This document shows positions 47,101-61,172 of a stretch of 64,000 nt of DNA, piece after piece. Position 1 is the stretch's first letter; the number at the start of each line of letters is the position of its first letter. The stretch comes from a virus (taxonomy: Duplodnaviria > Caudoviricetes): IMG/VR virus record IMGVR_UViG_3300028792_000003, positions 27,794 through 91,793 of that record. One strand, written 5' to 3'. Below the pieces are notes generated by a model. The model saw nothing but the letters and a program-made list of their open reading frames with translations, did no database searches and had not been told where the DNA came from. The translations under genes were made by a program, and so were the position numbers.

Positions 47101-47544
47101 GCCATGTTGGAGCAGGTCATGCAGTCCGTGCTCGACGTGGTGGAAGCAAGTACCCGCAGGCAGTCGCACCGGATCGCGGAGAAGATCCAGCAGATGGACC
47201 AGGCCGGTGCGTCGCTGGCAGAGATCCGGGAGCAGACCCGCAGGATGGTCGCTGATCAGTCCACCTGGCACAAGGCGCTGACCACGAACATGACGACTGC
47301 GGCCTACGAAGGCGTCAAGCACGAGGTCTACGCGACGGCGGGAAACCTGCTGGAGAAGGTCTGGAACTGCCTGGAGGACGAGCGGGTCAGGTTCAGCCAC
47401 AAGGAAGTGGACGGGGACACTCGACGTGTCGGCGTCCCGTTCATCGTCGGGAAGTCGGCGATGATGTATCCAGGCGATCCCGAAGGGCCAGCCGAAGAGG
47501 TGGCAAACTGCCGCTGCTTCCTAACTTTTCAAACCACGCAGTGA
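44125..47544 (+). CDS. HK97-type portal protein with intein, fused to C-terminal MuF/head morphogenesis domain
   Basis: VFRCVDAIA, LLNVRAN, NFLMNDGRPG, AFGVPESILG; C-terminal W...DERVR.SH...YPGDP...EVANCRC. Confidence 0.92.
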   Translation: MGFLDGLFEKKSAANDRATGHAISGSPNAMAYGYASGGDWDTDKAVKAGYEKVLWVFRCVDAIASNQVTIPIYEQRGAQKQQQGHLKNHNPKLHHLLNVRANSYEDAAMFRYRLTSLALLSRRGVFIEVVGNPNNPEALHLIPPGSCEPIPDPKTFVSGYRVRTANGSVEELKPSQVIWIRVKPHPTDPYAQMTPLVAAGITAETDYFARLFNRNFLMNDGRPGLLITVDGPISPEDAQELKRRFSGGASTAGQASVIEAEGLNVADLSATPRDAQWQEVTRVSKEDLLLAFGVPESILGNASGRCVDDQTEAFTKRGWVNGYDLTTDDVILSCDPADGRMKWSPIHEVYRNHNYAGDMYRLKHSHADFLVTPGHNWLTTDGELVKVEDLNTHSRLVLMGDAEDSTDKAIYDDALVELVGWYATEGYNGGKKTPYLRIRQNDGPNSVRIEDALQRADAAYSTHRDEKKWLFNIRGDVARQIDQIAPEKIISYDFIRDLTADQRMLLMNTMVDGDGCRQGSTKSLTFAQKDKRASEAFVYLATLCGYSTSLRERSYTYRHKGVEQQKSDWIVIVRHRKVTTTQRNTVSMEKYNGFVWCPRTDYGTFVARRNGRVMVTGNTFDNADAEYEIFWTHTMKPHCEALARGLDPLTGSIGDSTKVAFDYSTVDVLQRQERRQHDKAFAEWQAGATSLDEYRMATGKDPINVPGSRIIVLPSGIAIAHSPEDQAAVTKLPNVYAAMQQAGQQGAGGAGGADGAAGATGGPLGARPPRPGGVSGQGLPAGATAGMRAIESGAAHAGAMAGVQAGLHNLDNQMSARALRLAGKNFIPSRQIEKKALHNSAGAGSTGSGTDGQVIDVLGYEVKEHPYADQRRTLEGQLQGVMLSWGNRQAKVCVDRLGHSKVRKGTRHWDGEESKAFRGLDAFYVVEVDKWVDEVQSDFRVILTDAMKKEALRVARDMQDTGVLADMLTAGKGNPKGVSPLDKVMGSRQQKEAMLEQVMQSVLDVVEASTRRQSHRIAEKIQQMDQAGASLAEIREQTRRMVADQSTWHKALTTNMTTAAYEGVKHEVYATAGNLLEKVWNCLEDERVRFSHKEVDGDTRRVGVPFIVGKSAMMYPGDPEGPAEEVANCRCFLTFQTTQ
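45040..45978 (+). mobile_element. intein with LAGLIDADG endonuclease in the portal
   Basis: CVDDQTEAFTKRGW, VTPGHNW, GWYATEG/TMVDGDG, VWCP...VTGN followed by Thr. Confidence 0.92.
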
Positions 47545-48184: not shown

Positions 48185-49138
48185 ATGAGCGGCATCGTAG
48201 TTCCGCAGAAGACCACCGCTCTGATCGAGCAGGCCCAAGACATCATCCAGCAGAAGGTGGCGGGGGAGTTTTCCACCCGCACTCGCCGGGTGCCGCTCTA
48301 TCTGCACGACGGCAGCGACGTGAAGTGCCTTGCTCATGTGCAGGCCATGATGGGCGTGGACCGGATCACGGCTGCCATGTACTGCGCAGAGCAGAAGTCA
48401 AGAATGCCGTTCGTCTTGGGGGTGGAAAGCAAGTCAGTGCTGATGGAGGCTGGCCACCTGGAGGAGAAGGCAGTCCGTCACGTCCGGGACGCGGGCTACT
48501 GGGGCAAGCCGGTGGGAACCATCATCATCGGCGACTCTGGTGGCAAGGGCGGCAGCACCCTGGACAACCTGAAGTTCGTGGAGTCCCCCTACAAGGGCTG
48601 GGACACGGTGGCAGCCAAGGACGGCACCCAGTTCGAGGTCGGCTACGACGACAGCACCAGCAGTTGGGTGGCAGCCCGGATGCCCGGTGGCTGGGACGAT
48701 GTTGTCGTGGAGGGAGCCAAGACCAAGGACGACGCGCTGAAGAAGTTGAACTCGGTGGCAGGCAAGAGCCACGGTACTGCCAGCACCCAGACCCCGGCAG
48801 ACGCGTCCCAGGCCGGGAGATCGGCTCCTGTGGCTTCTAGTGATGCTTTCCGGGACAGCCTGAACCCCAAGGGGCAGTGGGCCTACGACCGACAGGTCAG
48901 GCTGGGCAACTCTGTGCAGGACGCCCGAGCCGAAGGTCAGCGGATGCACGACATCGGTGAAGAAGGCCAACAGGTAGCGAATGGCCAGCGAGCAGAAGCC
49001 CTGAAGCGCATCTTCTCGAAGTTGGATGGCTGGAAGCACTACACACGTGAGAACCTGAAGGACATGCCGTACCGGTTGCTGCAACAACTGGAGCAGGCGT
49101 ACGACAACGAGCACCGGAGTAGTGGGGGCAAACGATGA
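48185..49138 (+). CDS. head-module protein carrying the shared VRHV tag and ~70-aa repeat domain
   Basis: EKAVRHVRDAGYWGKPVGTII...GWD...EVGYDDST..WVA..GGWDDVVV. Confidence 0.75.
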   Translation: MSGIVVPQKTTALIEQAQDIIQQKVAGEFSTRTRRVPLYLHDGSDVKCLAHVQAMMGVDRITAAMYCAEQKSRMPFVLGVESKSVLMEAGHLEEKAVRHVRDAGYWGKPVGTIIIGDSGGKGGSTLDNLKFVESPYKGWDTVAAKDGTQFEVGYDDSTSSWVAARMPGGWDDVVVEGAKTKDDALKKLNSVAGKSHGTASTQTPADASQAGRSAPVASSDAFRDSLNPKGQWAYDRQVRLGNSVQDARAEGQRMHDIGEEGQQVANGQRAEALKRIFSKLDGWKHYTRENLKDMPYRLLQQLEQAYDNEHRSSGGKR

Positions 49139-51000
49139 CACTGATCATGCTGGAGGAACTGGACCACCTGGAACTGAAGGCAGTCCGGAAGGTCCGCACT
49201 CCTGGTGGCGCGAAGAAGTACGGGCAGGAGATCGGGACGATCATCGTGGCCGATGGAAAGCCGCCGCTGAAGAACCTGAAGATCGCTCCCAAGGGCGAGT
49301 ACGTCGGCTGGGACTTGGTGCACGGCTCGGACGGGAAGCAGTACGACGTCGGCATGGACGAGACCACCGGTCACTGGGTAGCCACCCGGGCCGGTTCGTG
49401 GGACGACATCGCGGTGGACAACGCCAGCAGCGAGGAAGAGGTCTACACGCTGCTGGACAAGGCGGTAGGCACCGGCAAGCGCCGGAAGGGAGACACTCTG
49501 CTCGGGTCGCACAGCAAGTACGACACCGAACGAGACCGCACCAAGGGCCGCAAGCACATGCAGACGCAGCGGGACCAGGCCAAGGACAAGTACGGCGACC
49601 GCAGGAAGGCGGGCTACGACAAGTTCGTCTCCGCCGCGATCATCAACTACGACAAGGCAGTCAAGGACGGCGACTACGCTCAGGCGCAGGACTGGCTGGA
49701 CAAGATGTTCGAGTCGATCAAGGCCCGGCACCGTCAGGACCAACTGCGAGCGGATGCTGCACTACAGGACAGCGCGAACAGGAACAACAGCAAGAAAGGC
49801 CCTATGAGCGTCACGCAGGTGCAGGAGCGCGCTGCGCAGATGCTGGCCGACCTGCAAGAGTCCTCCGTGTTCCAGAAGCACAAGGCCCAGATGGAGGCCC
49901 ACGACAAGAAGAAGCGCGACGGACTGGCCCGCAGAGTGGACGCGCTGAAGAAGTACACTGACGAGGGTCCGGGCTACGACCGGGACATCGCGGGCAACAT
50001 CAGCCGCTACCACGAAGAGATGGCCAACCTTGCCGGTGCTGATGGTCCGACCGCACGCAACGAGGTGATCAGCAACGCACAGGTTCACCTGCAACGTGCA
50101 GAGCGACGGGCAGATGCCAAGCGCAACACCGGCATCGTGCAGCACTCGCCGGTAGGACAGCCGGAGAAGGACAAGACGTCCAACAAGAAGCCCACTCCGG
50201 GGCAGGAAGGCTCGTCCGTCACCATCGGCGGGATGAAGGTCACGGTCACTCGGTCTGCCAGGCGGGACGCTCACGGGATGACCGACATCGGGATGCATTA
50301 CCTGGACCGCGACTACGACGTGCAGATGCCGTCGTACCAGGCCGGGAAGGCCAGCAAGATCACGGTCACCGATCCGACCAGCGGCAAGCAGGAGGAAGGC
50401 TTCCTGCCGCCCCGTGAAGAGGCAGGCGCTACCCCGGCAGATCGAGCCCAGCACGCCAACAGCCTGCTGGCCGGGATCATCAAGCGGCTGCACGGCAAGT
50501 TGGGAGACTCGCCCAACACGGCACGCAGGGGCATGCTCCAGAAGGGCAGTGCTGTACTCAGCACGCCGAACGACGACAAGAACAGCCTTTCCGGAGCGGA
50601 CCGGCAGAAGTTCCAGACCCTGAAGCGGCACCTGGACCTGGCCATCGCCACCAACGACGGAGAGCGTGCAGCAGCGGTGCTGGACCTGCTGGACGAGACA
50701 CTGTCCGACTCGGGGGTGGACAAGAAGCACGACACCCGGAAGCAGATCGAGAGGTTGCAGGACGCGACCAAGTACATGACGCAGCATCCGACCCTCAGCC
50801 TGGACCGTCCGATGACCAACAACGACCTGGCCGGGCAGGAGTCCTGGGTGCTCCAGAAGTTCCTTGCTGCCAGCGAGTCGGAACTCGCTGACGTTGCCGG
50901 GTCGAAACGAAAGGCGGATGTCGCACGGGCTGAGACACTGAAAGCCAACATCAGCCGGACCCAGCACACGCTGGCCAGCAGCACCGCCAACCAGCAGTAA
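49135..51000 (+). CDS. head-module protein carrying the shared VRKV tag and ~70-aa repeat domain, large unknown C-terminus
   Basis: LKAVRKVRTPGGAKKYGQEIGTIIVADGK...GWD...DVGMDETT..WVA..GSWDDIAV. Confidence 0.75.
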   Translation: MTLIMLEELDHLELKAVRKVRTPGGAKKYGQEIGTIIVADGKPPLKNLKIAPKGEYVGWDLVHGSDGKQYDVGMDETTGHWVATRAGSWDDIAVDNASSEEEVYTLLDKAVGTGKRRKGDTLLGSHSKYDTERDRTKGRKHMQTQRDQAKDKYGDRRKAGYDKFVSAAIINYDKAVKDGDYAQAQDWLDKMFESIKARHRQDQLRADAALQDSANRNNSKKGPMSVTQVQERAAQMLADLQESSVFQKHKAQMEAHDKKKRDGLARRVDALKKYTDEGPGYDRDIAGNISRYHEEMANLAGADGPTARNEVISNAQVHLQRAERRADAKRNTGIVQHSPVGQPEKDKTSNKKPTPGQEGSSVTIGGMKVTVTRSARRDAHGMTDIGMHYLDRDYDVQMPSYQAGKASKITVTDPTSGKQEEGFLPPREEAGATPADRAQHANSLLAGIIKRLHGKLGDSPNTARRGMLQKGSAVLSTPNDDKNSLSGADRQKFQTLKRHLDLAIATNDGERAAAVLDLLDETLSDSGVDKKHDTRKQIERLQDATKYMTQHPTLSLDRPMTNNDLAGQESWVLQKFLAASESELADVAGSKRKADVARAETLKANISRTQHTLASSTANQQ

Positions 51001-51015
51001 CGGGAGAGACAGACC

Positions 51016-51303
51016 ATGCCACTCACCACTAAGCACTGGTACGTGAACGGCGATACCGTCACGCCCGTGAACTGGTCCACCGCCGTGGTGAACGGCGTGG
51101 CCACTATCGACATTGACGAGATCACTCTGCGCAGCGACCAGGCGCACCCGGACCGCTGGAACTGGGCGAACAAGAACACCCAGGTGCCCGGCAGCGCAGT
51201 GACACAGGCTCAGGCACTTCAGGACGGCGGGGCGGTGCCGCAGGAGCGCTTCCCCGGCAGTGCCCCGGGCAAGTTCGCCACCCCCGCCATCACGGTCGCC
51301 TGA
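51016..51303 (+). CDS. hypothetical protein, probably virion-associated
   Basis: GGAG RBS; ends PAITVA, similar to the PPITVT end of 63049-63660. Confidence 0.6.
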   Translation: MPLTTKHWYVNGDTVTPVNWSTAVVNGVATIDIDEITLRSDQAHPDRWNWANKNTQVPGSAVTQAQALQDGGAVPQERFPGSAPGKFATPAITVA

Positions 51304-51356
51304 CCGGTCAACCAACCAGCAGCCAGTACCAGCCCCAGTAGAGGAAGAGAAACGTC

Positions 51357-53021
51357 ATGGGCATCTTGGACGCACCGGGCAGGACACTCGCGGTGAACAG
51401 CACCGTCAGTACGGACGGCACCCTCGCGGTGAACAGGCACAACCCGGTGGACGCTTCTGCCAGTAACCGGACGATGACTCTTCCGGATGCCACGGGCGGC
51501 GGTCAGACCGTGATCGTCAGCAAGAAGGACAGCACGTCCAACACTGTCACGATCAACGTGGCGCACCTCCGGGACAACGGTGCCGGGACGGTCACGCTGG
51601 ACTACCAGTTCGAGTCGCTGGAGTTCCTGAGCAAGTCGGACGGCACGTGGTGGCCGATTGCAGGCCACAAGACGAAGGCGCAACTATCGGCCACATTTGC
51701 CACGGTCGCCGGACTCCAGAAGAACACCCGCAAGATCGTCGGCTACGAGTCCCTTGTGGCCGCGCTCTCTGAGGCCCAGGACGACGTGGCGGTCGGACTC
51801 GTTGGGGATTCCACCGGGGACGCGGTGGATGAGTGGTTCTACCTGTTCGGCCAGTACCTGGCAACCACCAACCCGGCGTACACCGCCAAGCACCGGGCCT
51901 GGTCCGACTCCACGCAGAAGTTAGCCGCTCCGACCACCTACCAGACCGGCACGGGCGGCGTTCAGCGCGCGGTCGTGATGGCCCCCTCGGGCATCACTGG
52001 TGGCGTCGGCTTCGCGGGGCCGAACGTGATCACCGACCTCGACGTGGCGATCTATTGCAAGCCCGGCACCTGGCGCTCGGGCACCCAGACGTTTGTGTCC
52101 AAGTTCAGCACCTCGGGCACCGATCGGTCGTTCCGGTTCCAGATCAACAGCACCGGCAATCTCGTCTTCGACTGGACCGCGGACGGCACCACCATCCAGA
52201 CTGCCGCGAACTCCGGCACCACGGTCCCGTTCGCGGACGGAACCGCAGGGTGGGTCCGGGTCGTCCTCGATGTGGACAACGGCACCGGCGGGCACGCCAT
52301 CATGTTCTACACGTCCACCGATGGCCTCACCTGGACCCAACTCGGGTCCACCGTCACCCGAACCGGCACCACAACCAGCGTGTTCGCGTCCACCTACGCC
52401 TACGAACTCGGCGTCCGCTCGGGCGGCTCCGAGCCCCTGTACGGGGCACGCATCTACGAGGTGGAGATCCGCGACGGCATCGACGGACCCACCATTGCAC
52501 CCCGGCTGGCAACCCTGTGGAACCGAGGCGTCGGCACGGGCGTCCCGACCATCGAAGGTGCTCCGGTGCTGACGATGGTCAACGGGTCCATGCCCGGCGC
52601 GGCCACGTCGTACCTGAACGACCCGGTGCGCTACAAGCGGATGACCCCCGACTACGGCCAGGCGGTCGTGTTCTTCTCCGACTCCCACAACGAGCAGAAC
52701 ACGGTCGGGCAGGCGTGGATCACGCTGCTGTCCTCATGGGTGACCAACGTGCTCGGTCGGCTGCCGATGGCCGCCCCGGTGCTGCTCACCCAGAACCCGC
52801 GCTACAGCCCGACGACGTTCATCGACTCCCACGCCAAGCGGCGCAGGCAGACCATCGGCTGGGCACGGCAGAAGGGCTACTCCGTCATCGACACCTATCA
52901 GGCGTTCCTCGATGACGGACGCGGCGCGGCGCTCATCAACATCGACGGTATCCACCCGACCCAGGTCCCCAACGGCGGGCAGGCCGTGTGGCTCAACGCC
53001 ATCAAGGCCCCGCTGCTCTGA
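51357..53021 (+). CDS. virion-associated SGNH/GDSL hydrolase with inserted LamG/concanavalin-like beta-sandwich
   Basis: VGDSTG block I and DGIHP block V separated by a Thr/Gly-rich beta region. Confidence 0.7.
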   Translation: MGILDAPGRTLAVNSTVSTDGTLAVNRHNPVDASASNRTMTLPDATGGGQTVIVSKKDSTSNTVTINVAHLRDNGAGTVTLDYQFESLEFLSKSDGTWWPIAGHKTKAQLSATFATVAGLQKNTRKIVGYESLVAALSEAQDDVAVGLVGDSTGDAVDEWFYLFGQYLATTNPAYTAKHRAWSDSTQKLAAPTTYQTGTGGVQRAVVMAPSGITGGVGFAGPNVITDLDVAIYCKPGTWRSGTQTFVSKFSTSGTDRSFRFQINSTGNLVFDWTADGTTIQTAANSGTTVPFADGTAGWVRVVLDVDNGTGGHAIMFYTSTDGLTWTQLGSTVTRTGTTTSVFASTYAYELGVRSGGSEPLYGARIYEVEIRDGIDGPTIAPRLATLWNRGVGTGVPTIEGAPVLTMVNGSMPGAATSYLNDPVRYKRMTPDYGQAVVFFSDSHNEQNTVGQAWITLLSSWVTNVLGRLPMAAPVLLTQNPRYSPTTFIDSHAKRRRQTIGWARQKGYSVIDTYQAFLDDGRGAALINIDGIHPTQVPNGGQAVWLNAIKAPLL

Positions 53022-53112
53022 CTGCCCCACTTCGCCCGCATAGTGCTAGGTAAGAACTAACTAGCACCAGCGTCAATTGGGGCAGTCTGAACTGGCAGTG
53101 ACAGCACAGGAA

Positions 53113-53147
53113 CAGAGCGACTCGTGTCCAGCACACGGGTCGTTCTG
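53113..53147 (+). terminator. 15-bp hairpin in intergenic gap
   Basis: cagagcgactcgtgt/acacgggtcgttctg. Confidence 0.5.
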
Positions 53148-53219
53148 CTCTTCCCGTGAGACCCTGCACACGACGGACCATCTGACTTGCCTGACCTGCA
53201 CCCGATCAGGGAGAACCAC

Positions 53220-56200
53220 ATGAACATCGCTGCACGGGCGATTGCAGCCACGAAGAGCCTGTCCCCGGTGTCTGGGGTCAACGGCACCCTGGAACGCCCG
53301 CAGAACGGCGCTGACGGATCGGCAGAACGCTCTGCTGGTCTGCTGCCGCCGCCTGCCAGCGACCTGGACGGGTTCGCGGTGATGCTGATCCCGCAGGACG
53401 ACGACGCAGCGGACATCGCTCCGTTCTGCGCGGTGGACCCGTCCGACCTGCACACGACGCTGGTCTACTACGGCGACGCCGCTCAGTACAAGGGTCAGTG
53501 GACGGGTGACCTGCTGGCCAAGGTACTACAGGCTGTTGCACTTGTGCAGGAGCCGATCCAGGCAGTGCTGGGCGGGGTGATCAGGTTCTCTGGCAAGCCG
53601 GGTGGTAACGACCCCATCGTGTTCAGCGTGGACAGCAAGGATCTGTCTGTCTTCCGGCAGGCAGTTCTCGACCGGCTCGCTGACGAGTGCAGTATCACCG
53701 AGCAGACGGAGCACGGGTTCACGCCGCACATGACGATGGGCTACTTGCCGCACGACGAGTCGCTGCAACTCAACGGCTGGAAGCCCAGGAAGATCGTCTT
53801 CGACCGGGTGCGGGTCGGGTTTGGCAAGGACCAGTACGACGTCTACTTGGGCGAGGGTTGGGGCGACAAGTCCGTCCGGCACGTGTCCAGTGCTGCGGGA
53901 GTACGCCGGTACAACCTCCCCATCGGCAGCGTGATCGGCTCTGACGGACCGCAGGTTCTGCCGCTGGACATCGAAGAGCCCGACCCGAAGTTGAACAAGC
54001 CTCGTGACATGGCCCGGATCAGCAAGCGACCCGACGTGGCCGACGCAAGGACCGAGTACAGCCACATGCAGGCCCAGTTCGAGACGTTGCAAGAGCGCGA
54101 CGACGAGTACTGGAGCAGCACGGACAAGAACTCGTACACGGACTCGCCGTCCGCGAAGTTCTACCGGGACTACGGGTTCACGCACGAAGACACGCAGTAC
54201 AACGACTCCGGCCTTGCTGGTGCCGTTGCCCAGGGGCCGTGGGCCGGGTTCGGAGCCTGTAAGGCGATCCGGCAGTCCGCGTACGACATGCTGGGGTTCA
54301 AGTCCACGAACCAGTCAGAGACGCGCGGTGACGCGCACATCCACACTGCTGCGCCGTCATGGGGAGCGGGTGCGGGAGTGAACAACCCTGCCCTGCACGC
54401 CTACGCGCTGATGATGGGAGTGCGGGACGGCGACAGGTTCCACCAGCCGCTGTACCGGGGAGTGACGGTTCCGGACAGTGCCGGGTTCGTCAAGAAGTTG
54501 AAGGAGGGGGACACCTTCGACATGCCGCTGGTGTCTTTCGCCAACGACCGGGGCACCAGCGCTCGCTTCGGCACCGACGTCACGTTCGTCTTGCAGTCGG
54601 GTGCTCGTGCTGTCGAGGGTGGAGTGATGGGCCTGCCGACGGACGACCCGCGCCACCACGACTGGGTAAACGGGATGCTGGAAGATGACGACTTCCGGGA
54701 GTACGTCTCCGGTGGCAGGTTCAGGATCACCGGCATCCGGCCCAACAGCAACGGCTACACAGTGCTGATCAAGCAGATAGGAGTGTTCGACCCGCAGACT
54801 GCCGTCCTGACTAAGACAGACGGTGCAGGCAAGTATGTGCAGCCGAACTTCTCCTGGATGTTCGACACCGCGCTGGCACTGCCGAAGCCGAAGAAGAAGC
54901 AGGCTGGAAACCAGGAGAAGGCAGCCCTGCTGGTGTGCAAGGACTGTGGCAAGACCTATGCGGCGGACAGTCAGGAGGAGATCGACGCGCACCGGGCTCT
55001 GCATGACGATAAGCAGGAGCACAAGGACGTCTACAACGGGATGCCTGGCCTGCCGATGAAGCGCAAGCCGAAGCGCCCGAAGATCGTCCAGCGCACGCCG
55101 TCTGCACTCAGGACGCGGGCCAGCACCCATGTAGCCCGGAACATCACCAGCGAGAAGAAGGACGGCGCTCTTGACTTGGTTGCTCGTGCTCTGGCCGTAG
55201 AACTGAAGACGGTCAGGCATGTGGCCACTCAGGCTGGAGCCAAGCGGTTCGGTCAGCCCATCGGCACCATCATCGTCGCGGACGGCAAGACTCCGCTACC
55301 CAACCTGTCGATCAGCAAGAAGCCCGCGTACGACGGCTGGACCAACATCGACGGCACGGACGGCAAGACCTACGAGGTGGGTCACGACGACAGCACCGAC
55401 TCTTGGGTCGCCTGCGGTCCCGGTGGCTGGGACGACGTGGTGGTGGACCGTGCCAAGTCTGAGGACGATGCTCTGCGGAAGTTGGACGCCTACGTCAAGA
55501 AGCAGCCGCAGAAGAAGACTCCGCTGAAGCCGAAGACGACCGTTGCCAAGAGCAGTACTGGCAACAAGAAGCCGGTGGGTACGGCCAAGGCTCGTGCGGC
55601 TGCGGGAACCGGCTACAAGCGCGTGGGCAAGGGGTTGGATGTCCAGGGAGAGAACAACAACATCCCCTACGGCAACGCACCCGCAGAGGAACGCAAGCGC
55701 AGGATTCCTCCGGGCACCAGGACGTTGCGCAAGTACACCGACAAGAGTCCCGAGGCCGCTGCCTTCCGGAAGAAGTACGGAATCCCGCCCGCCTACAAGA
55801 CGTTCTGGATCAACGAATCGCGGGACGAGAGCGCTCCCGACAGTCAGTACGACGGCCTCGTCTTCATCGGCTACGACGAGTTCAAGAAGAAGGATCAGTT
55901 CGTCTTCTCGTCCCGGCACTGGGACCGGCAGGACGGGAAGAAGTTCGGAACCAGCAACGATCCCGACGCCGCAGAACTGAGCAACGTGCCGGTGCTGCTG
56001 AAGAACCGGACCCGGGTGCTGAACGTGCTGAAGAAGGATGCACAGTCCAGCGATCCCAAGAAGCGAGCCGCAGCACGCGCACTGCTGGTGCAGGCCATGA
56101 CCGGCATGCGGATCGGCGCGGAGCACAAGAAGGGCGAGCGTGCCATCGACAGGCGGTACGGGGCGTCCACCCTGGAGGCACGACACGTCACCGTCAACAA

Positions 56201-56690
56201 GAACAGCGTGACGTTCAACTTCATGGCCAAGGGCAATCACCCTCGCTTCGATGACGCGGGCCAGCCGATCCTGAACCCGAACGGGAAGAACATCTGGCCG
56301 GGCAAGCCCTACAAGGTGCGGATCACGGACAAGACACTCGTTGACCTGATGACTGACGAACTGGACTCGAAGGCACGCAACGACAGGCTGTTCCAGGCAT
56401 CCGCCAGCCAGGCCAACGACTACTTCCGCGACGTGCAGAAGCAACTCAAACTGTCGGGCGACCTGACGTCGCACAACTTCCGGCACGTCAAAGCGACGAT
56501 GGTCGCCCTGTCTGAGATCGACAAGATGACCAAGCCGAAGACAGAGGCCGACTTCATCAAGAAGCAGCGGGAGGTGTGCGAGCGAGTAGGTGCGGTGATC
56601 AACGACAGTTGGGATGTTGCTCGGCGGTCGTACATCATGCACAGCGTGTGGCAGGCATGGACCAACGGAACCGACTGGAAGGCGCTCTGA
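53220..56690 (+). CDS. polyvalent protein: 2H phosphoesterase + ADP-ribosyltransferase + C2H2-like finger + repeat domain + DNA topoisomerase IB
   Basis: LHTTL/PHMTM; LYRG...VSF...REYV; CKDC...H...H; IPPAY..WI, GMRIG, YGASTLEARHV, F.AKG, SHNFR, ARRSYI. Confidence 0.85.
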   Translation: MNIAARAIAATKSLSPVSGVNGTLERPQNGADGSAERSAGLLPPPASDLDGFAVMLIPQDDDAADIAPFCAVDPSDLHTTLVYYGDAAQYKGQWTGDLLAKVLQAVALVQEPIQAVLGGVIRFSGKPGGNDPIVFSVDSKDLSVFRQAVLDRLADECSITEQTEHGFTPHMTMGYLPHDESLQLNGWKPRKIVFDRVRVGFGKDQYDVYLGEGWGDKSVRHVSSAAGVRRYNLPIGSVIGSDGPQVLPLDIEEPDPKLNKPRDMARISKRPDVADARTEYSHMQAQFETLQERDDEYWSSTDKNSYTDSPSAKFYRDYGFTHEDTQYNDSGLAGAVAQGPWAGFGACKAIRQSAYDMLGFKSTNQSETRGDAHIHTAAPSWGAGAGVNNPALHAYALMMGVRDGDRFHQPLYRGVTVPDSAGFVKKLKEGDTFDMPLVSFANDRGTSARFGTDVTFVLQSGARAVEGGVMGLPTDDPRHHDWVNGMLEDDDFREYVSGGRFRITGIRPNSNGYTVLIKQIGVFDPQTAVLTKTDGAGKYVQPNFSWMFDTALALPKPKKKQAGNQEKAALLVCKDCGKTYAADSQEEIDAHRALHDDKQEHKDVYNGMPGLPMKRKPKRPKIVQRTPSALRTRASTHVARNITSEKKDGALDLVARALAVELKTVRHVATQAGAKRFGQPIGTIIVADGKTPLPNLSISKKPAYDGWTNIDGTDGKTYEVGHDDSTDSWVACGPGGWDDVVVDRAKSEDDALRKLDAYVKKQPQKKTPLKPKTTVAKSSTGNKKPVGTAKARAAAGTGYKRVGKGLDVQGENNNIPYGNAPAEERKRRIPPGTRTLRKYTDKSPEAAAFRKKYGIPPAYKTFWINESRDESAPDSQYDGLVFIGYDEFKKKDQFVFSSRHWDRQDGKKFGTSNDPDAAELSNVPVLLKNRTRVLNVLKKDAQSSDPKKRAAARALLVQAMTGMRIGAEHKKGERAIDRRYGASTLEARHVTVNKNSVTFNFMAKGNHPRFDDAGQPILNPNGKNIWPGKPYKVRITDKTLVDLMTDELDSKARNDRLFQASASQANDYFRDVQKQLKLSGDLTSHNFRHVKATMVALSEIDKMTKPKTEADFIKKQREVCERVGAVINDSWDVARRSYIMHSVWQAWTNGTDWKAL

Positions 56691-56692
56691 TC

Positions 56693-56821
56693 ATGGGCTA
56701 CGTCGAAGATACGGACATCGCAGACGTGCAGGACGTTGCAGTAGTAGACGTCCCGACCGAAAAAGAAGAGGCTGCCCTGACGGTCAAGTACGGCCACCTG
56801 CTAGGACTGAACGATGCCTAG
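56693..56821 (+). CDS. small acidic protein
   Basis: fills the gap between the polyprotein and the protease gene. Confidence 0.4.
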   Translation: MGYVEDTDIADVQDVAVVDVPTEKEEAALTVKYGHLLGLNDA

Positions 56822-59690
56822 GAACACCAGGCTGGACGCACGGGCCGAAGCGTTCCTGGAGGAGAAGGCAGTCGTACGCACACCCGGTGGCCGAGTAGGC
56901 AGCGACGACAAGCACGGCAGCAGTGCGAACGGCACCAACTGGGTGGAGCGGTCCAAGCCCGGGAAGAAGGGCAGCCTGCCGCGCTACATCCGGATCGTGC
57001 GCAACGGGTTGATCAAGGACGGCAAGTCCGAGTCGCAGGCAACGGCGCTGGCCGTGTCCGCGATCAAGAGGTGGGCTTCGGGTGGCGACAACGTGTCGCC
57101 CAAGGTGCAGAAGGCCGCAGCGCAGGCTCTGGCCGAGTGGGAAAAGATGAAGCAGTCCGCACATGCGAAGAAGGATGACGCGCCGGATTTCCAGGACGAC
57201 TGGTCGGAATCCTCTAGTCTTCAGCACCAGGACCAGAACACCACTGAGATGAAAGGCTCGACAGCGATGCACATGGAGCACAAGTCGGTCGGGGTGAGTG
57301 GCCTCAGCGTCGTTGACGAGACCAAGGGCGTCGTGGAGACCATCGTCTCCGTGACCGGCATCGTGGACAACGTGAAGGACATCATCGAGCCGGGCGCGTA
57401 CACCAAGTCCCTGAACACCCGCACTCCCAAGGGCGTCTGGAGCCATTCCTGGGACACCCCTGTTGCGAAGACCATCGCAGTCAAGGAACTGATGCCAGGA
57501 GACAGCGACCTGCCTGCCAACCTTCCCAGCGGCCTACCCTGGCCTGCTGACGCCGGAGCGCTGCTGGTGAAGACCCAGTTCAACCTGGGCACCCAGCGCG
57601 GGCAGGAAGCCTATAGCGACGTGACCTTCTTCGGTGACCAGCAGGAGTGGTGCGCTGACGCCGACACGGAGATCCTGACGCAGCGTGGCTGGGTCCGTTA
57701 CGACGACCTGACCACGGATGACCTTGCCTACACGCTTGATCCGCAGATGGCGGTGGGTCGCTTCGAGAAGGTCGAGGCGGTCAACATCTGGGAAGACAAG
57801 ACGCGTACGATGCGCAAGATCGAGACCGGTGGGCACTCGTCACTGACCACTGCCCAGCACCGCTGGCCCGTGGTTCGAACGATGACGGGCGGGCATGTCG
57901 ATTGGAAGACCACCGACACACTGGACACTCGTGACCAGTTCTTCCGGGCAGCACAGCGAATCGACGCGCCCATCGAGGCCAAGTACAACGATGCCTTCGT
58001 GGAGATTGTTGCGTGGTTCTGGAATGAGGGGTGGGTTCCTCCGGCAGACCATTCGGATGCGGGGTTGTACTTCGCGCAGTCTGTGGACAAGAACCCACAG
58101 CACGTCGCCGCCATCAGGTCTGCGCTCCAGCGGGCGTTCAACGGCCACTGGACCGAGCGGCACAGCAACGATGGCATGGCGCGTTTCCGGCTCACCCGGG
58201 AAGCGGCGAGCCACGTCCTGGCAGTGACCGGGGAGCACAAGCAGCCGCTTCCGGAGTTCATCACGTCGTTGACCACCGCGCAGTTGCGACTGTTCATCGA
58301 GAAGTGCCTCGATGGGGATGGCCACCGGGCCAAGGGCGGTCAGCGGACGTGGTACCAGGTTGAAGATGCGTCTGTCCGTGCGTTCGAGATGATCTGCGCA
58401 CTGGCTGGCGTTCCGACCAACACAAAGGCGCAGAAGGACTATGGCAATCGTCATGGTCGTACTCCGCAACGAGTGGCACTGCTGAAGTCCGGCATGGTCG
58501 GTCCGCTTGCTTCAATCAAGACGAAGGGCTACGGCTACAAGACGGGTGACCCGCGTACGCCGTCCACTGACGAGTGGGTCGAGCACACCGGCATCGTCTG
58601 GTGCCCGACAACTGCTTCAGGCACCTGGCTCGCTCGACGCAATGGTTCGATCTACTTCACCGGCAACAGCATCGGCTACCAGGTTCCGGTGGGTGGCGCG
58701 ACCATCGACAGCAAGACCGGCCAGCGCAGGATTCACACGCTGGAACTCTACGAGTACAGCCCCGTCCTGTTCGGTGCCATGCCTGCCGCTCGTACCCGGA
58801 TGGGCGAGTTGGACGGTGTGAAGTCGGCTCAGATCGCGTTCAAGTCGATGAGCATGAATCCCGTCGAACTGAAGGAGTGGGCCGGTGAGATCAACCTCGA
58901 CATCACGGACTTCCTCGAAGCAAAGGACGGCAAGCCCAAGAACAACAAGCCGTCTGACTCGAACGAGGACGAGGACGATCTCTTCCTCGCGGGTGACGAA
59001 GAGGATGCAGAAGACGCAGCCGACGGTGGCATCGACGAAGCCGAAGAGGACGACGAAGACGACACCGCCACAGCCAAGCGCGGTCACAAGTCCGCGTACA
59101 CGGCGTGGGAGCACGAGATTCTCGTCAAGGCCCACGACGCCATCGGTGCAGTCCTTGGATTCGGGAACACGACCGACGCGGACGACATCTCCGACCTCAC
59201 CGAGCAGAAGGGTGCAGCCGATCCCAACGGCGACGACCCCGAGGACTCCGGTGCAGGCGGCGACGGTGGAGCCGACGAAGCCGACGAGACGTCCTCGCTT
59301 TCCGATGTTGTCTCGAACTTCGCGGAAGTCCTGAAGAACAACGAGATGGATGACATCGAGTCCTACGCGTCTGACTTCGATGACGCCGTTGACGGAAGCG
59401 ATCCGGATGGCGCAGAGCAGGCCGGTAACGCGATCCTGGACATGATCGAGGGCATCGAGGAGCCGGACAGCGACCTGCGGGAAGCGTTCAGCGCAGTGGC
59501 CCGTGCCATTGCCGATCTCGCCCCGGAGGCAGCCGGTGACTCTGCTGCGCAGACGGACAGCGCTGGCAACGATGCTCCTCCGGCTGACGAGACCGACACC
59601 CAGAAGAAGACGGATGACGCGGTGATCACCATCGAGACGAAGCAGTTGGATGCTTTGCGTGCGTCGTTGCTCGGGAATTACAGGATCTAG
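56814..59690 (+). CDS. HK97-type prohead (capsid maturation) protease with intein, N-terminal extension and acidic C-terminal scaffold-like region
   Basis: VDNVKDIIEPGAY, WSH, G.EAY, EW|SIGY, LYEYSPVLFGAMPAAR. Confidence 0.9.
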   Translation: MPRNTRLDARAEAFLEEKAVVRTPGGRVGSDDKHGSSANGTNWVERSKPGKKGSLPRYIRIVRNGLIKDGKSESQATALAVSAIKRWASGGDNVSPKVQKAAAQALAEWEKMKQSAHAKKDDAPDFQDDWSESSSLQHQDQNTTEMKGSTAMHMEHKSVGVSGLSVVDETKGVVETIVSVTGIVDNVKDIIEPGAYTKSLNTRTPKGVWSHSWDTPVAKTIAVKELMPGDSDLPANLPSGLPWPADAGALLVKTQFNLGTQRGQEAYSDVTFFGDQQEWCADADTEILTQRGWVRYDDLTTDDLAYTLDPQMAVGRFEKVEAVNIWEDKTRTMRKIETGGHSSLTTAQHRWPVVRTMTGGHVDWKTTDTLDTRDQFFRAAQRIDAPIEAKYNDAFVEIVAWFWNEGWVPPADHSDAGLYFAQSVDKNPQHVAAIRSALQRAFNGHWTERHSNDGMARFRLTREAASHVLAVTGEHKQPLPEFITSLTTAQLRLFIEKCLDGDGHRAKGGQRTWYQVEDASVRAFEMICALAGVPTNTKAQKDYGNRHGRTPQRVALLKSGMVGPLASIKTKGYGYKTGDPRTPSTDEWVEHTGIVWCPTTASGTWLARRNGSIYFTGNSIGYQVPVGGATIDSKTGQRRIHTLELYEYSPVLFGAMPAARTRMGELDGVKSAQIAFKSMSMNPVELKEWAGEINLDITDFLEAKDGKPKNNKPSDSNEDEDDLFLAGDEEDAEDAADGGIDEAEEDDEDDTATAKRGHKSAYTAWEHEILVKAHDAIGAVLGFGNTTDADDISDLTEQKGAADPNGDDPEDSGAGGDGGADEADETSSLSDVVSNFAEVLKNNEMDDIESYASDFDDAVDGSDPDGAEQAGNAILDMIEGIEEPDSDLREAFSAVARAIADLAPEAAGDSAAQTDSAGNDAPPADETDTQKKTDDAVITIETKQLDALRASLLGNYRI
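57651..58667 (+). mobile_element. intein with LAGLIDADG endonuclease in the prohead protease
   Basis: CADADTEILTQRGW, TAQHRW, AWFWNEG/KCLDGDG, VWCP...FTGN followed by Ser. Confidence 0.92.
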
Positions 59691-59795
59691 TGCTTTAATC
59701 GGCACTAACGAGTTCGCCACAGTGCTGACTGGTGGCAAGCACTCACCACACAGAAGTACCCAAACAGCACCCACTTGGAAAGGTAGGAAACCGCG

Positions 59796-61172
59796 ATGTC
59801 TGTTGACACCACGCGGGTGGCGGAACTCGAAACCGCTTACCAGGAGAAGGTCGCCTTCATCAACGAGGGCATCGAGAAGGGCGTCAAGGTCGATGGGGCC
59901 AACGTCGAGATCAAGTCGGACGACTGGAAGGCCCTGGAGGCGGCGCGCGACGACGCTCTTCAGATCAAGTCGCTGATCGGCATGCAGTACATGGGCGACG
60001 AGTTCAAGTCGTTCATGGGCAACATGCAGGCGATGGCCGGTGACGGTTCGTCCACCGCTTCTGTCGCTCTTCAGGCGGCGCAGCAGATGCAGCGTCCCGA
60101 GATCAAGTCGCTGGGCGCGGCGTTCACGGACTCCGAGGAGTTCAAGTCCCTGCTGAAGTCGGGCCGGATGACCATGGACACGCCGTTCACGATGGAGGCG
60201 CACGACGTCTCCGCGTACGGCACCTACGGTCAGAAGGACGTCTTCGGGGCGATGTCGGGTGCGCAGCACACGATCAACCACGGCTTCGGCTCGATTCAGT
60301 TCGACCCGATGATCCCCCGTCCGCAGCGTCCGACTCGTGTGCGTGACCTGTTCCCGGTCGCCACCACGAACGCCAACCTGATCGACTACTTCCGCGTGCT
60401 CGGCTTCGCGGAGAACAGCGGCCAGGGCAACGCGCTTCCGGTCCGGGACCGCGCTGCTGCTGATGGCACGTCCAACCCGGCTGGGAACAGCACCGACACG
60501 TTCGGCCTGAAGCCCAAGTCGAACCTGACCTTCGAGTCGGCTCAGGCTCCGGTCCGGACCCTGGCCCACTGGGAGGCCGCGCACCGCAACGTCCTTCAGG
60601 ACGAGCCGCAGTTGCAGTCCACGATCAACAACGAACTGCTCTACGGCCTGGCGCTGGAGGAGGACTTCCAGATCCTTCAGGGCGACGGCACCGGTGAGAA
60701 CCTGCTCGGCCTGCTGAACGCGAACAACACGCAGTCGTACACCCAGGCGTCCAGCGGCGGTACCCCCACGGAGTTGAAGAGCGATGCTCTTCGCCGTGCG
60801 GCCACCAAGGCGTTCCTGGCGTACTACCCGGCTACGGGCTACGTGCTGCACCCCTACGACTGGGAGGACATCGAACTCCAGCGGGGCACCACGAACGACC
60901 AGTACATGCTGGTCACGAACATCGCGGTGGGTGCGCAGCAGCAGGTCTGGCGTCAGCCGGTGGTCGAGACCCCGGCCATGCCGGAGGGCACCTTCGTCAC
61001 GGGTGCCTGGGGCATCGGTGCGCAGTTGTACGACCGTCAGGTCGCCAACGTGCGGATCGCGGAGCAGCACGCGGACTTCTTCGTGCGAAACGCGGTCGCC
61101 ATTCTGGTTGAGGAGCGGCTTGCATTTGCTGTGAAGCGTCCCCAATCCTTCGTTATTGGTCGCTTCGCCTGA
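59796..61172 (+). CDS. major capsid protein, HK97 fold, with N-terminal delta-like domain
   Basis: VRDLFPV, KPKSNLTF, VRTLAHW, EDFQILQGDGTGENLLGL, FVRNAVAILVEERLA. Confidence 0.95.
   Translation: MSVDTTRVAELETAYQEKVAFINEGIEKGVKVDGANVEIKSDDWKALEAARDDALQIKSLIGMQYMGDEFKSFMGNMQAMAGDGSSTASVALQAAQQMQRPEIKSLGAAFTDSEEFKSLLKSGRMTMDTPFTMEAHDVSAYGTYGQKDVFGAMSGAQHTINHGFGSIQFDPMIPRPQRPTRVRDLFPVATTNANLIDYFRVLGFAENSGQGNALPVRDRAAADGTSNPAGNSTDTFGLKPKSNLTFESAQAPVRTLAHWEAAHRNVLQDEPQLQSTINNELLYGLALEEDFQILQGDGTGENLLGLLNANNTQSYTQASSGGTPTELKSDALRRAATKAFLAYYPATGYVLHPYDWEDIELQRGTTNDQYMLVTNIAVGAQQQVWRQPVVETPAMPEGTFVTGAWGIGAQLYDRQVANVRIAEQHADFFVRNAVAILVEERLAFAVKRPQSFVIGRFA

What the first reader, a model, noticed from the sequence alone, without database searches (positions are those of the whole stretch)
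48185..56900. Candidate capsid-cargo system: shared K-[AST]-V-R-x-V tag on head-module proteins and the protease
Seen: EK-AVRHVRDAGYWGKPVGTII (48467), LK-AVRKVRTPGGAKKYGQEIGTII (49177), DK-SVRHVSSAAGVRRYNLPIGSVI (53868), LK-TVRHVATQAGAKRFGQPIGTII (55206) and a shorter EK-AVVRTPGG (56865) at the protease N-terminus. In the polyprotein the tags fall exactly at domain boundaries, before the ART and before the topoisomerase module. Established: the HK97 protease cleaves the capsid protein after Lys (K/S), and this capsid N-terminus has repeated IKSL/FKSF/FKSL. Inference: the tag is a combined protease cut site and head-targeting or ejection signal, so enzymes are packaged, released as separate units and injected with the DNA. 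I know of no description of this tag.
Basis: partly seen in the sequence, partly recalled or inferred. Interest (0 to 1): 0.9.

Follow-up and report, generated by a model that had tools for sequence, protein, structure and literature searches.

The report
Header tag on phage head cargo
A conserved, apparently undescribed peptide of about 30 residues opens every enzyme unit (RNA phosphoesterase, ADP-ribosyltransferase, topoisomerase and others) encoded between the portal and capsid genes of this Gordonia-type phage and about 200 other phage protein clusters. It most likely marks where the head protease cuts and labels the pieces as cargo carried in the capsid, though no experiment yet shows this.

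Summary
Four copies are highly significant (HMM E 6e-10 to 7e-19 within the genome). The fifth, at the protease N-terminus, is only a half copy.

Three copies are the start of a ~100-residue domain (tag T plus globular part G) with no Pfam, NCBIfam, PHROG, PDB or BFVD match.

A profile search of 1.84 billion proteins found 198 clusters. They hold 235 tags in the 152 proteins mapped, up to 7 in one protein. Tags sit at N-termini or about 320 residues apart. Partner domains include topoisomerase IB, 2H phosphoesterase, ART, zeta toxin, GNAT, PG-binding, Tad3, MuF and S78 protease. Wherever I could see the genomic context, the tags lay next to portal, protease or capsid genes.

The tag has two parts:
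- **Prefix (L-E-x-K):** it matches the E-x-K|S sites packed into the capsid delta domain, and occurs only in phages with an S78 (HK97-type) protease.
- **Core (V-R-R-V-R-T-P-x-G...Y-G-Q-P-I-G-S-I-I):** it also occurs, without the prefix, in Mu-type-protease phages, often at the very N-terminus.

Best reading: a cut site plus a retained cargo header. The header's role in packaging, retention or ejection is inferred, not shown.

Earlier notes of this scan report analogous header tags with different sequences in other phages. I found no published description.

The parts
44125..47544 (+). Portal protein with an intein (45040-45978) and a C-terminal MuF-like domain; upstream border of the cargo block
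   Evidence: Pfam Phage_portal E 5e-36. Phage_Mu_F E 1.8e-4, below the Pfam cut-off. PHROG head morphogenesis E 3e-22. Intein borders found by comparison with Gray gp23.
48185..49138 (+). P0001 (317 aa): N-terminal ~80-residue domain, an E-S-K|S site, leader plus E-E-K, then variant tag plus G domain (48455-48763), then a C-terminal part
   Evidence: E 6e-10. The same variant tag (H-V-R-D..Y-W-G) opens Gray gp26 and gp27.
49135..51000 (+). P0002 (621 aa): 15-residue leader ending L-E-L-K, tag plus G domain (49165-49470), then ~500 residues of charged, probably helical protein of unknown role
   Evidence: AF2 model of residues 1-125 has pLDDT 85. HMM E 7e-18.
53187..56690 (+). P0004 polyprotein; its true start is probably the ATG at 53220. 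Order of parts: 2H phosphoesterase (53376-53855), tag alone (53838-53939), ART (about 54024-54821), zinc-finger-like stretch (54918-55007), leader plus tag plus G (55164-55496), topoisomerase IB (56001-56609)
   Evidence: Pfam 2_5_RNA_ligase2 E 2e-8 and Topoisom_I E 2e-8. ART fold from AF2 plus Foldseek, top hits all ARTs, E 1e-6. Invariant R, S and E across relatives. Start codon from the Atlas record.
56814..59690 (+). Prohead protease (S78, HK97 type) split by an intein (57651-58667). Its N-terminal extension starts with leader, E-E-K and a half tag (56814-56891). An M-E-H-K|S-V site (57267-57293) lies just before the protease domain, and a long acidic C-terminal region follows
   Evidence: Pfam Peptidase_S78 E 5e-5, above cut-off. 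TIGR01543 E 7e-6, below cut-off. 57% identical to Gray gp34 across the N-extein. Half tag scores E 7.9.
59796..61172 (+). Major capsid protein (HK97 fold) with an N-terminal delta domain holding five E/Q/D-x-K-[SA]-hydrophobic sites (59922-60152)
   Evidence: Pfam Phage_capsid E 7e-38. Sites listed. In 120 relatives there are 297 such sites in the first 135 residues against 5 in the rest.
51357..53021 (+). P0003, a tail-fibre-like or hydrolase-like protein without a tag, lying inside the block. Not part of the tag system, but it shows the block is not purely head cargo
   Evidence: PHROG tail fibre E 2e-32. Gray has 'minor tail protein' genes and lysin B at the same place.

Best explanation
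The tag is the header of a head-cargo cassette and has two separable parts.

**Part 1: leader and prefix.** A short, probably helical leader ends in hydrophobic-E-x-K. This is most likely a cleavage site for the phage's own HK97-type (S78) prohead protease, the same kind of site that riddles the capsid delta domain and flanks the protease domain.

**Part 2: core.** The core is about 22 residues (V-R-[RH]-V-R-T-P-x-G-x-R-R-Y-G-Q-P-I-G-S-I-I). It lies after the cut, so it would become the new N-terminus of each released unit.

**Proposed mechanism.** P0001, P0002, the P0004 polyprotein and the protease precursor are built into the procapsid. The protease then cuts before each core, releasing separate enzymes (2H phosphoesterase, ART, topoisomerase IB and others), each still carrying the core. 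The core, alone or as the first element of the T+G domain, is the label that gets or keeps these units in the head so that they enter the host with the DNA.

**Shown:** the motif, its position at unit borders, its spread, its head-module context, the link between prefix and protease family, and the cargo domain identities.

**Inferred:** cleavage at E-x-K, presence in virions, and the core's role in packaging or retention.
For: 1. **A real family.** The profile of the three window copies finds 198 clusters at E<=1e-3 (102 at <=1e-10) among 1.84e9 proteins.
2. **Header position.** 235 tags were mapped in 152 proteins. The first tag lies within 30 residues of the N-terminus in 64 of 143 proteins and within 60 in 89 of 143. 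Median spacing between tags is 323 residues. One protein holds up to 7 tags, and three adjacent giant proteins hold 12.
3. **Cassette behaviour.** The ART module of P0004 directly follows a tag in relatives P0066, P0145, P0075, P0154 and P0017. In Gordonia phage Gray the ART (gp26) and gp27 are separate genes that each start with leader, E-x-K and tag.
4. **Cut-site logic.**
   - E is present in 172 of 229 and K in 214 of 230 aligned tags, just before the core.
   - The pattern [EDQ]-x-K-[SATG]-hydrophobic occurs 1.83 times per 100 residues in the first 135 residues of 120 related capsid proteins, against 0.013 in the rest.
   - 16 of the 23 such sites in the genome's long frames lie in the head block.
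   - Similar sites bracket the protease domain.
5. **Prefix follows the protease.** All six phages with an S78 protease have E-x-K-type prefixes: the window, DalanDe, Gray, L025, G004 and G009. Five phages with a Mu-like protease, plus Forza (neither family found), have the core without the prefix, often directly after the start Met.
6. **Head context.** Wherever neighbours could be identified, tags lay within about 10 kb of portal, MuF, protease or capsid genes on the same strand. The ten cases are the window, DalanDe, Gray, Forza, L022, L025, L006, L008, G004 and G005.
7. **Cargo-like partners.** Topo IB 24, 2H 25, PG_binding 8, S78 7, ART 5, zeta toxin 3, MuF 3, GNAT 2, Tad3 1.
8. **Virus-specific.** A degenerate DNA pattern for the core hits 12 IMG/VR contigs but only one contig in 185,579 prokaryote genomes.
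Against: - There are no protein-level data: no virion proteome, no N-terminal sequence, no binding result.
- The tag prefix and the capsid sites differ in detail. P2 is polar and P4 hydrophobic in tags; P2 is hydrophobic and P4 acidic in the capsid. P1' is often Val or Gly in tags.
- One window copy has G-D-K instead of E-x-K.
- The core is conserved across phages with different portal and protease families (Phage_portal with S78, Portal_Mu with Mu-like_Pro). That argues against a lineage-specific docking surface on the shell.
- The 2H protein of Gray (gp25) has no detectable tag, so a tag is not needed by every such enzyme.
- In T+G the tag is an integral, well-ordered part of a folded domain (pLDDT above 90). 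The tag alone is predicted disordered (pLDDT 25-38). It may therefore simply be a domain fragment or a binding motif for another partner.
- The 6-versus-6 prefix-to-protease link is not phylogenetically independent.
Confidence: 0.5

Rival explanations
1. The cut-site part is right, but the core is not a packaging signal. It is a handle used after assembly. As a strongly basic N-terminal peptide it could bind the packaged DNA or the portal and tail channel, so that each released unit leaves with the DNA (an ejection or hitch-hiking signal).
For: - The core carries 4-5 Arg or Lys in 22 residues.
- It lies after the putative cut, so it would be retained at the N-terminus.
- It is conserved across phages with different portal and protease families, as expected for a universal partner such as DNA.
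- The tag alone is predicted disordered.
Against: - The invariant non-basic positions (T-P-x-G, Y-G-Q-P-I-G-S-x-I) suggest a specific fold or partner rather than charge alone.
- In T+G the core is buried in a folded domain.
- There is no direct evidence for DNA binding or ejection.
Confidence: 0.2
2. The tag and the T+G domain act in the infected cell, not in the capsid. They would form a small adaptor module that brings each enzyme to a common host or phage target (a protein, nucleic acid or the cell envelope). The head-module location would reflect only that these are polyvalent early effectors.
For: - T+G is a compact alpha/beta domain with weak SH2-like topology rows (Z about 4, not significant).
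- G occurs alone and in tandem.
- Tags accompany very different enzymes.
- Carrier phages span 41-71% GC.
Against: - A host-directed adaptor would not be expected to carry a prefix that tracks the phage's own protease family.
- It would not be expected on the prohead protease and on a portal C-terminus.
- Hosts as different as the GC range implies are unlikely to share one target.
Confidence: 0.15
3. The conserved G-[ST] inside the core (P-I-G-S-I-I) is an autoproteolytic site of the SEA-domain kind (G|S-V-V-V), so the units free themselves without the prohead protease.
For: - Ser or Thr follows the invariant Gly in 211 of 235 copies.
- The local string resembles the SEA cleavage motif (from memory, not tested).
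Against: - Ala or Asp replaces the nucleophile in 19 of 235 copies.
- The tag-alone copies have no fold to strain the bond.
- No SEA domain appears among the fold matches.
- This reading does not explain the E-x-K prefix or its link to the protease family.
Confidence: 0.03

Closest known systems
Polyvalent proteins of phages and conjugative elements (Iyer, Burroughs, Anand, de Souza, Aravind 2017, PMC5512222)
   Same: Several conflict-type enzyme domains (2H phosphoesterase, ART, GNAT, zeta toxin and others) sit in one polypeptide, are encoded among virion genes, are often joined to MuF or portal, and are predicted to be delivered with the DNA. P0004 and its relatives fit this description.
   Different: The paper proposes built-in zincin-like peptidases for processing. 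In my term searches of it I found no recurring header peptide between units. Here there is no zincin domain; a conserved tag heads each unit and the prohead protease is the likely processor. Topoisomerase IB is the commonest partner here.
Phage T4 capsid targeting sequence of internal proteins IPI-III and Alt, with the gp21 protease (from established knowledge; reviews PMC9026906, PMC9958956)
   Same: An N-terminal address on proteins that are packed in the head, processed by the prohead protease and injected. Alt is an ART.
   Different: The T4 sequence is about 10-20 residues, is removed by cleavage after Glu (L/I-x-E), and binds the scaffolding core. Here the conserved core lies after the putative cut (after Lys) and would be kept. 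The protease is of another family (S78). The tag also recurs inside polyproteins.
HK97 gp4 protease and gp5 delta domain (Peptidase_S78)
   Same: The protease family is the same. The capsid protein has an N-terminal delta domain with repeated Lys|Ser sites. From memory, the HK97 mature N-terminus follows Lys103, and a C-terminal piece of gp4 targets proteins into proheads (Duda, Oh, Hendrix 2013).
   Different: HK97 is not known to process cargo polyproteins, and its targeting element is the protease's C-terminus, which is unrelated in sequence. Here the protease precursor carries the tag at its N-terminus, and the protease gene is split by an intein.
MuF-based polymorphic toxins of temperate phages (Jamet et al. 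2017, PMC5576092)
   Same: Variable toxin or effector domains are attached to a head protein. Relatives P0053 and P0154 are MuF proteins followed by tagged units.
   Different: In the window MuF is fused to the portal, while the cargo proteins are separate genes. That paper contains none of the words motif, linker or cleav-. The carriers here appear to be lytic phages: 12 viral contigs match the core pattern against one contig in 185,579 prokaryote genomes.
Encapsulin cargo-loading peptides
   Same: A short conserved peptide with a G-S-hydrophobic core addresses diverse enzymes to the inside of an HK97-fold shell. This is an analogy only.
   Different: No sequence relation was shown, encapsulin peptides are mostly C-terminal, and binding of this tag to the capsid protein could not be tested.

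Membership tests
Polyvalent proteins (Iyer et al. 2017) | Two or more effector-type domains in one polypeptide | tested here: met
   P0004 holds 2H (Pfam E 2e-8), an ART fold (Foldseek E 1e-6, top hits all ARTs) and topo IB (Pfam E 2e-8).
Polyvalent proteins (Iyer et al. 2017) | Encoded among virion or late genes of a phage, often next to portal or MuF | tested here: met
   The gene lies between portal-MuF (44125-47544) and protease and capsid (56814-61172).
Polyvalent proteins (Iyer et al. 2017) | Delivered into the host with the DNA | not testable with these tools
   Needs a virion proteome and an ejection assay.
T4-type capsid targeting sequence | Short N-terminal leader that is cut off by the prohead protease after packaging | tested here: inconclusive
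   A 10-18-residue leader ending E-x-K precedes the core and could play this part. However, the conserved core lies after the putative cut, and copies in Mu-type phages start right after Met.
T4-type capsid targeting sequence | gp21-family protease cutting after Glu in L/I-x-E | tested here: not met
   The protease is Peptidase_S78, and the conserved residue before the core is Lys (214 of 230).
HK97-type maturation (Peptidase_S78 with delta domain) | S78 prohead protease encoded next to the capsid gene | tested here: met
   PF04586 E 5e-5, 24 bits against a 21-bit cut-off. 57% identity to Gray gp34 'capsid maturation protease'. The gene is interrupted by a 339-residue intein.
HK97-type maturation (Peptidase_S78 with delta domain) | Capsid protein with an N-terminal delta domain carrying the protease sites | tested here: met
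   The Pfam Phage_capsid match starts at residue 238. Five E/Q/D-x-K-[SA]-hydrophobic sites lie in residues 43-119. Across 120 relatives the enrichment is 140-fold. Actual cleavage was not tested.
HK97-type maturation (Peptidase_S78 with delta domain) | Cleavage of the tagged proteins at E-x-K by this protease | not testable with these tools
   Only the sequence match and the prefix-to-protease co-occurrence (6 of 6 against 0 of 6) support it.
MuF polymorphic toxins (Jamet et al. 2017) | N-terminal MuF domain joined to a variable C-terminal toxin | tested here: not met
   In the window, MuF is at the portal C-terminus (weak Pfam hit, PHROG E 3e-22), and the tagged proteins have no MuF. Relatives P0053 and P0154 do have MuF plus tagged units.
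Any catalogued family for the tag or the T+G domain | Match to a Pfam, NCBIfam or PHROG model or to a known fold | tested here: inconclusive
   No model hits P0001 or P0002. Foldseek on PDB and BFVD gives nothing at E<=1e-3. The best VIA Z is 4.5. Absence of a match does not prove a new fold.

The most novel reading that the evidence does not exclude
The ~22-residue core is a general N-terminal address peptide that does not depend on the protease family. It would load, hold or eject arbitrary proteins in tailed-phage heads. Different phage lineages would have fitted it with their own protease site, giving a portable 'cut here, carry this' cassette system. Such a system could be used to pack chosen proteins into phage particles, and it would show which enzymes (topoisomerase IB, 2H, ART, Tad3 and others) phages deliver ready-made.
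Probability: 0.35. Interest if true: 0.85.

Novelty: new variant of a known kind. Interest (0 to 1): 0.72.

Why it matters
Phages are known to carry a few ready-made proteins into the cell. Examples are T4 internal proteins and Alt, the P1 Dar proteins and the N4 RNA polymerase. Outside those models, how proteins are chosen for the head is largely unknown.

A sequence-defined header would help in four ways:
- It gives a way to list head cargo straight from genomes. The list here is led by topoisomerase IB and 2H phosphoesterase, with ART, zeta toxin, GNAT and one Thoeris inhibitor (Tad3).
- It gives a testable rule for how polyvalent proteins are taken apart.
- It extends cargo processing to the HK97-type protease family.
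- It offers a possible handle for loading proteins into phage particles.

The tag is present in cultured, non-pathogen phages (Gordonia phages Gray, GMA6, DalanDe, Forza), so the prediction can be tested with ordinary virion mass spectrometry.

Tried and rejected
- **Complex prediction.** Complex prediction (capsid protein alignment A7 with tag alignment A6) was not available, so tag-to-capsid binding could not be examined.
- **Atlas fold library.** Not on the machine.
- **Near-identical DNA in named phages.** None found.
- **The search for related loci with the window's own copies.** Gave only 4 loci because the derived patterns were too specific. A hand-made degenerate pattern did better.
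- **tblastn with a 45-residue tag.** Found nothing. A 76-residue relative was needed.
- **Shorter stand-alone homologues of the P0004 ART module.** None at E<=1e-5. Pfam sees no ART in it or in its relatives. The assignment rests on fold and the conserved R/S/E.
- **Fold of T+G.** No match in PDB by Foldseek or BFVD. VIA wide gave a best Z of 4.5, with SH2-like rows near Z 4. I do not claim an SH2 relation.
- **Recombination-site idea.** The idea was that tags act as DNA recombination sites for cassette shuffling. The window's copies show no excess nucleotide identity: 54-69% nt, with synonymous positions no more alike than codon bias would give. This is not supported for this genome.
- **'T binds G in trans' idea.** Complete genomes of Gray, Forza and the 98%-complete G005 have tags but no G module. 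G therefore cannot be the general partner.
- **Upstream K-S/T site.** A second site 6-16 residues before E-x-K occurs in 20% of tags against an 11% background. This is weak, so I did not build on it.
- **Literature.** Motif strings appear in no paper. The T4, P1 and jumbo-phage literature describes other signals.

Full report
**Where the window lies.** The window is bases 27794-91793 of a 91.8-kb IMG/VR virus record that CheckV rates complete. GC is about 62% and the head-module genes examined (40.1-61.2 kb) all lie on the + strand. The capsid protein is 59-61% identical to those of Gordonia phages GMA6 and Gray (genus Bendigovirus, which have a tail sheath).

Gene order around the finding is as follows:
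- Large terminase with an intein (40099-42774).
- Portal with an intein and a C-terminal MuF-like domain (44125-47544).
- A TIG-domain protein (47557-48036).
- P0001 (48185-49138).
- P0002 (49135-51000).
- A 95-residue ORF.
- P0003, tail-fibre-like (51357-53021).
- P0004 (53187-56690).
- An S78 prohead protease split by an intein (56814-59690).
- The HK97-type major capsid protein (59796-61172).

**Check of the observation.** The five strings are at the stated coordinates. Three of them are not 25-residue tags. They are the first third of a ~100-residue domain shared by P0001, P0002 and P0004, with 41-55% identity and BLASTP E 1e-20 to 4e-29.

The protease copy is half a T: with a tag profile built from relatives it scores E=7.9, while the other four score 6e-10 to 7e-19 against the six-frame genome. 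It is credible only by position, because the 'capsid maturation protease' genes of Gordonia phages DalanDe and UBSmoodge begin with a full T+G. The genome holds no further copy.

**Domain borders.**
- The P0004 2H phosphoesterase domain ends at about residue 223 (Pfam 87-193 of a 152-position model; PHROG 64-223). T starts at 224-228.
- The module after it gave no Pfam hit. An Atlas feature search pointed to ADP-ribosyltransferases (score 0.94).
- An AlphaFold2 model of residues 215-600 has pLDDT 70-90 over the module. Its best Foldseek matches are all ARTs: Tre1 E 1e-6, then Vis, C3 and ExoS.
- An R-G, an S-F and a Glu are invariant across eight relatives.
- The second tag, with its G, precedes topoisomerase IB (Pfam 944-1141).

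**The family.** A profile of the three window copies, run over 1.84 billion representative proteins, found 198 clusters at E<=1e-3, 102 at <=1e-10 and 11 at <=1e-30. Mapping the modules in 152 proteins gave 291 hits: 146 T+G, 89 T alone, and G alone or in tandem.

From 235 copies the consensus is hydrophobic-E-x-K-(x)-[VI]-R-[RH]-V-R-T-[PA]-[AE]-G-x-R-[RK]-[YF]-[GK]-Q-P-I-G-[ST]-[IV]-I. E is present in 172 of 229 copies and K in 214 of 230.

Position statistics:
- The first tag lies within 30 residues of the N-terminus in 64 of 143 proteins, and within 60 in 89.
- Successive tags are a median of 323 residues apart.
- One 2537-residue MuF protein has 7 tags. Together with the next two giant proteins, one of which carries poly(A) polymerase, PNKP-like and NUDIX domains, that phage has 12 tags and no G in the 22 kb seen.

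Pfam partners over 147 representatives are topoisomerase IB 24, 2H 25, PG_binding_1 8, S78 protease 7, ADPrib_exo_Tox 3, DRAT 2, zeta toxin 3, MuF 3, GNAT 2, LysM 2, DUF7178 2, and one each of Tad3, PI3/4-kinase-like and HeH.

No Pfam, NCBIfam or PHROG model covers T or G.

**Structure.** P0002 residues 1-125 fold with mean pLDDT 85, and above 90 from about residue 20 to 110. T forms a short strand, a helix and a strand that belong to one compact alpha/beta domain with G. I found no convincing fold relative. By contrast, the T-alone copy of P0004 is predicted without confidence (pLDDT 25-38). T thus looks like a peptide that is ordered only when it has something to pack against.

**Context.** In every case where I could identify neighbours, the tags lie in the portal-to-capsid block on the same strand:
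- The window.
- DalanDe gp21, gp22 and gp27.
- Gray gp26 and gp27.
- Forza gp80, annotated 'ADP-ribosyltransferase', and a small ORF before the capsid gene.
- L022, next to a portal-2H fusion.
- L025, just before protease and capsid.
- L006 and L008, next to Mu-type portals.
- G004 and G005, 2-9 kb from the protease.

A degenerate DNA pattern for the core matches 12 IMG/VR contigs but only one small MAG contig among 185,579 prokaryote genomes. The carriers therefore seem to be lytic phages. Their GC runs from 41% to 71%, so the hosts are probably diverse. The named carriers infect Gordonia and Brevibacterium.

**Fused versus split.** Gray has the same modules in the same order as the window's P0004, but as separate genes: 2H (gp25), ART (gp26), and gp27, whose only detectable likeness to P0004 is at the tags.
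- gp26 and gp27 each begin with a 10-17-residue leader ending E-x-K, followed by a variant core (H-V-R-D..[YF]-W-G..G-T-P-I). The same variant is seen in the window's P0001.
- gp27 has a second, canonical tag inside.
- gp25 has no tag.

The ART module of P0004 directly follows a tag in five other relatives, in two of them right at the N-terminus. Tag plus domain therefore behaves as a cassette.

**The cut-site part.** The capsid delta domain of the window has five [EDQ]-x-K-[SA]-hydrophobic sites in residues 43-119. In 120 related capsid proteins there are 297 such sites in the first 135 residues against 5 in the remaining ~320, that is 1.83 against 0.013 per 100 residues. Of 23 such sites in all long frames of the genome, 16 lie in the head block. 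Similar sites bracket the protease domain: M-E-H-K|S-V in the window; L-Q-Y-K|A-V and M-E-I-K|S-L in DalanDe; and Gray gp34 starts with a 9-residue leader ending D-Y-K|A-V. This fits the Lys|Ser specificity I recall for HK97, which I did not check in a paper here.

The tag prefix shares E at P3, K at P1, a small residue at P1' and a hydrophobic one at P2'. It differs at P2 and P4.

**Prefix and core are separable.**
- Six phages with an S78 protease have E-x-K-type prefixes: the window, DalanDe, Gray, L025, G004 and G009.
- Five phages with a Mu-like protease (G001, G002, G005, G006, G008) have the core without the prefix. So does Forza, in which neither protease family was found.
- In L006 three proteins, among them a GNAT-MuF protein and a giant of more than 3362 residues, begin with Met followed at once by the core.

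A cut site at the very start of a protein would be pointless, so the core must do something else. The natural N-terminal cores look like what S78 cleavage would create in the window phage. These 12 genomes are not independent samples.

**What the core does.** This step is inferred. I favour a head-incorporation or retention label (about 0.5 for the whole scheme) for three reasons:
- It is confined to the head block.
- It heads very different enzymes.
- It also sits on proteins that must be inside the procapsid (protease precursors, a portal C-terminus).

The main rival is a post-assembly role: a basic N-terminal handle for DNA or the exit channel. That would explain conservation across portal and protease families better. 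A host-directed adaptor role and SEA-like self-cleavage are less likely, as set out under the rivals. G cannot be the general partner of T, because complete carrier genomes lack G.

**Comparison with what is known.** The proteins are good examples of the polyvalent proteins of Iyer et al. 2017 (PMC5512222), which I read. In my term searches of that paper I found no header peptide between units, and it proposes zincin-like peptidases for processing. The MuF toxin paper (PMC5576092) contains none of the words motif, linker or cleav-. T4's capsid targeting sequence is the closest in function but differs in position relative to the cut, in protease family and in cleavage residue. The motif strings occur in no paper of the library.

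Earlier notes of this scan report the same theme with other tag sequences in other phages. These are unchecked AI notes and I did not test them. They suggest that header tags on head cargo are a general, still undescribed habit of phages, of which this is one well-populated family.

**Verdict.** This is a new, well-defined variant of a known kind of system: protease-processed, head-packaged effector proteins. It has an undescribed tag and domain family and a clear experimental test in cultured Gordonia phages.

Noticed in passing
window 40099-42774, 45040-45978 (in portal), 57651-58667 (in protease), 34488-35834: Three head-assembly genes are each interrupted by an intein: large terminase (LAGLIDADG/Hom_end hits), portal (313 residues) and prohead protease (339 residues). 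The intein-free homologues in Gray and DalanDe define the borders. A fourth weak intein signal lies in a muramidase-like gene. An intein inside an S78 prohead protease seems unusual.
   Followed up: partly
window 44125-47544: Portal and MuF-like head-morphogenesis domains are fused in one 1139-residue protein. The same fusion occurs in Gray gp23 (30% identity over the C-terminal part).
   Followed up: partly
window 51357-53021; L026 17697-22266: A tail-fibre-like or hydrolase-like protein (P0003; PHROG tail fibre E 2e-32) lies between portal and protease. In Gray, two 'minor tail protein' genes and lysin B lie in the same position. It is unclear why tail or lysis functions sit inside the head block.
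   Followed up: no
window 53187-53220: The P0004 ORF as listed starts at a TTG. A public record of the same protein starts at the ATG 11 codons later (53220), which is the more likely start.
   Followed up: partly
window 48473-48529; L026 13041-13150 and 14129-14240: A variant of the core (H-V-R-D-x-x-[YF]-W-G-x-P-x-G-T) occurs in P0001 and at the N-termini of Gray gp26 (ART) and gp27. The family therefore has at least two sequence types within one phage group.
   Followed up: partly
L022 3496-5790 and 16452-21767: In an uncultured relative, the portal itself is fused to a 2H phosphoesterase. A 1771-residue protein with poly(A) polymerase, PNKP-like HAD and NUDIX domains carries two tags, which would make it a possible packaged RNA-repair or RNA-modifying kit.
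   Followed up: no
alignment A4 (one of P0114-P0157): One tag-bearing protein contains a Tad3 domain (type I Thoeris inhibitor; Pfam E 1.5e-35). This would be an anti-defence protein delivered ready-made. I did not identify which member it is or where the tag lies relative to Tad3.
   Followed up: no
window 56950-57130 (P0005 residues about 50-105): The protease N-terminal extension holds a second conserved-looking stretch (helical, ...A-I-K-R-W-A-S-G-G...A-E-W-E...). DalanDe's protease ends with a G-S-F-P-I...N-A-I-x-A-x-G-R-A stretch. Both resemble motifs I recall from other phage head proteins. Neither was examined.
   Followed up: no
window 61253-62023: An HNH endonuclease gene (Pfam HNH_3 E 4e-10) lies directly after the capsid gene.
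   Followed up: no
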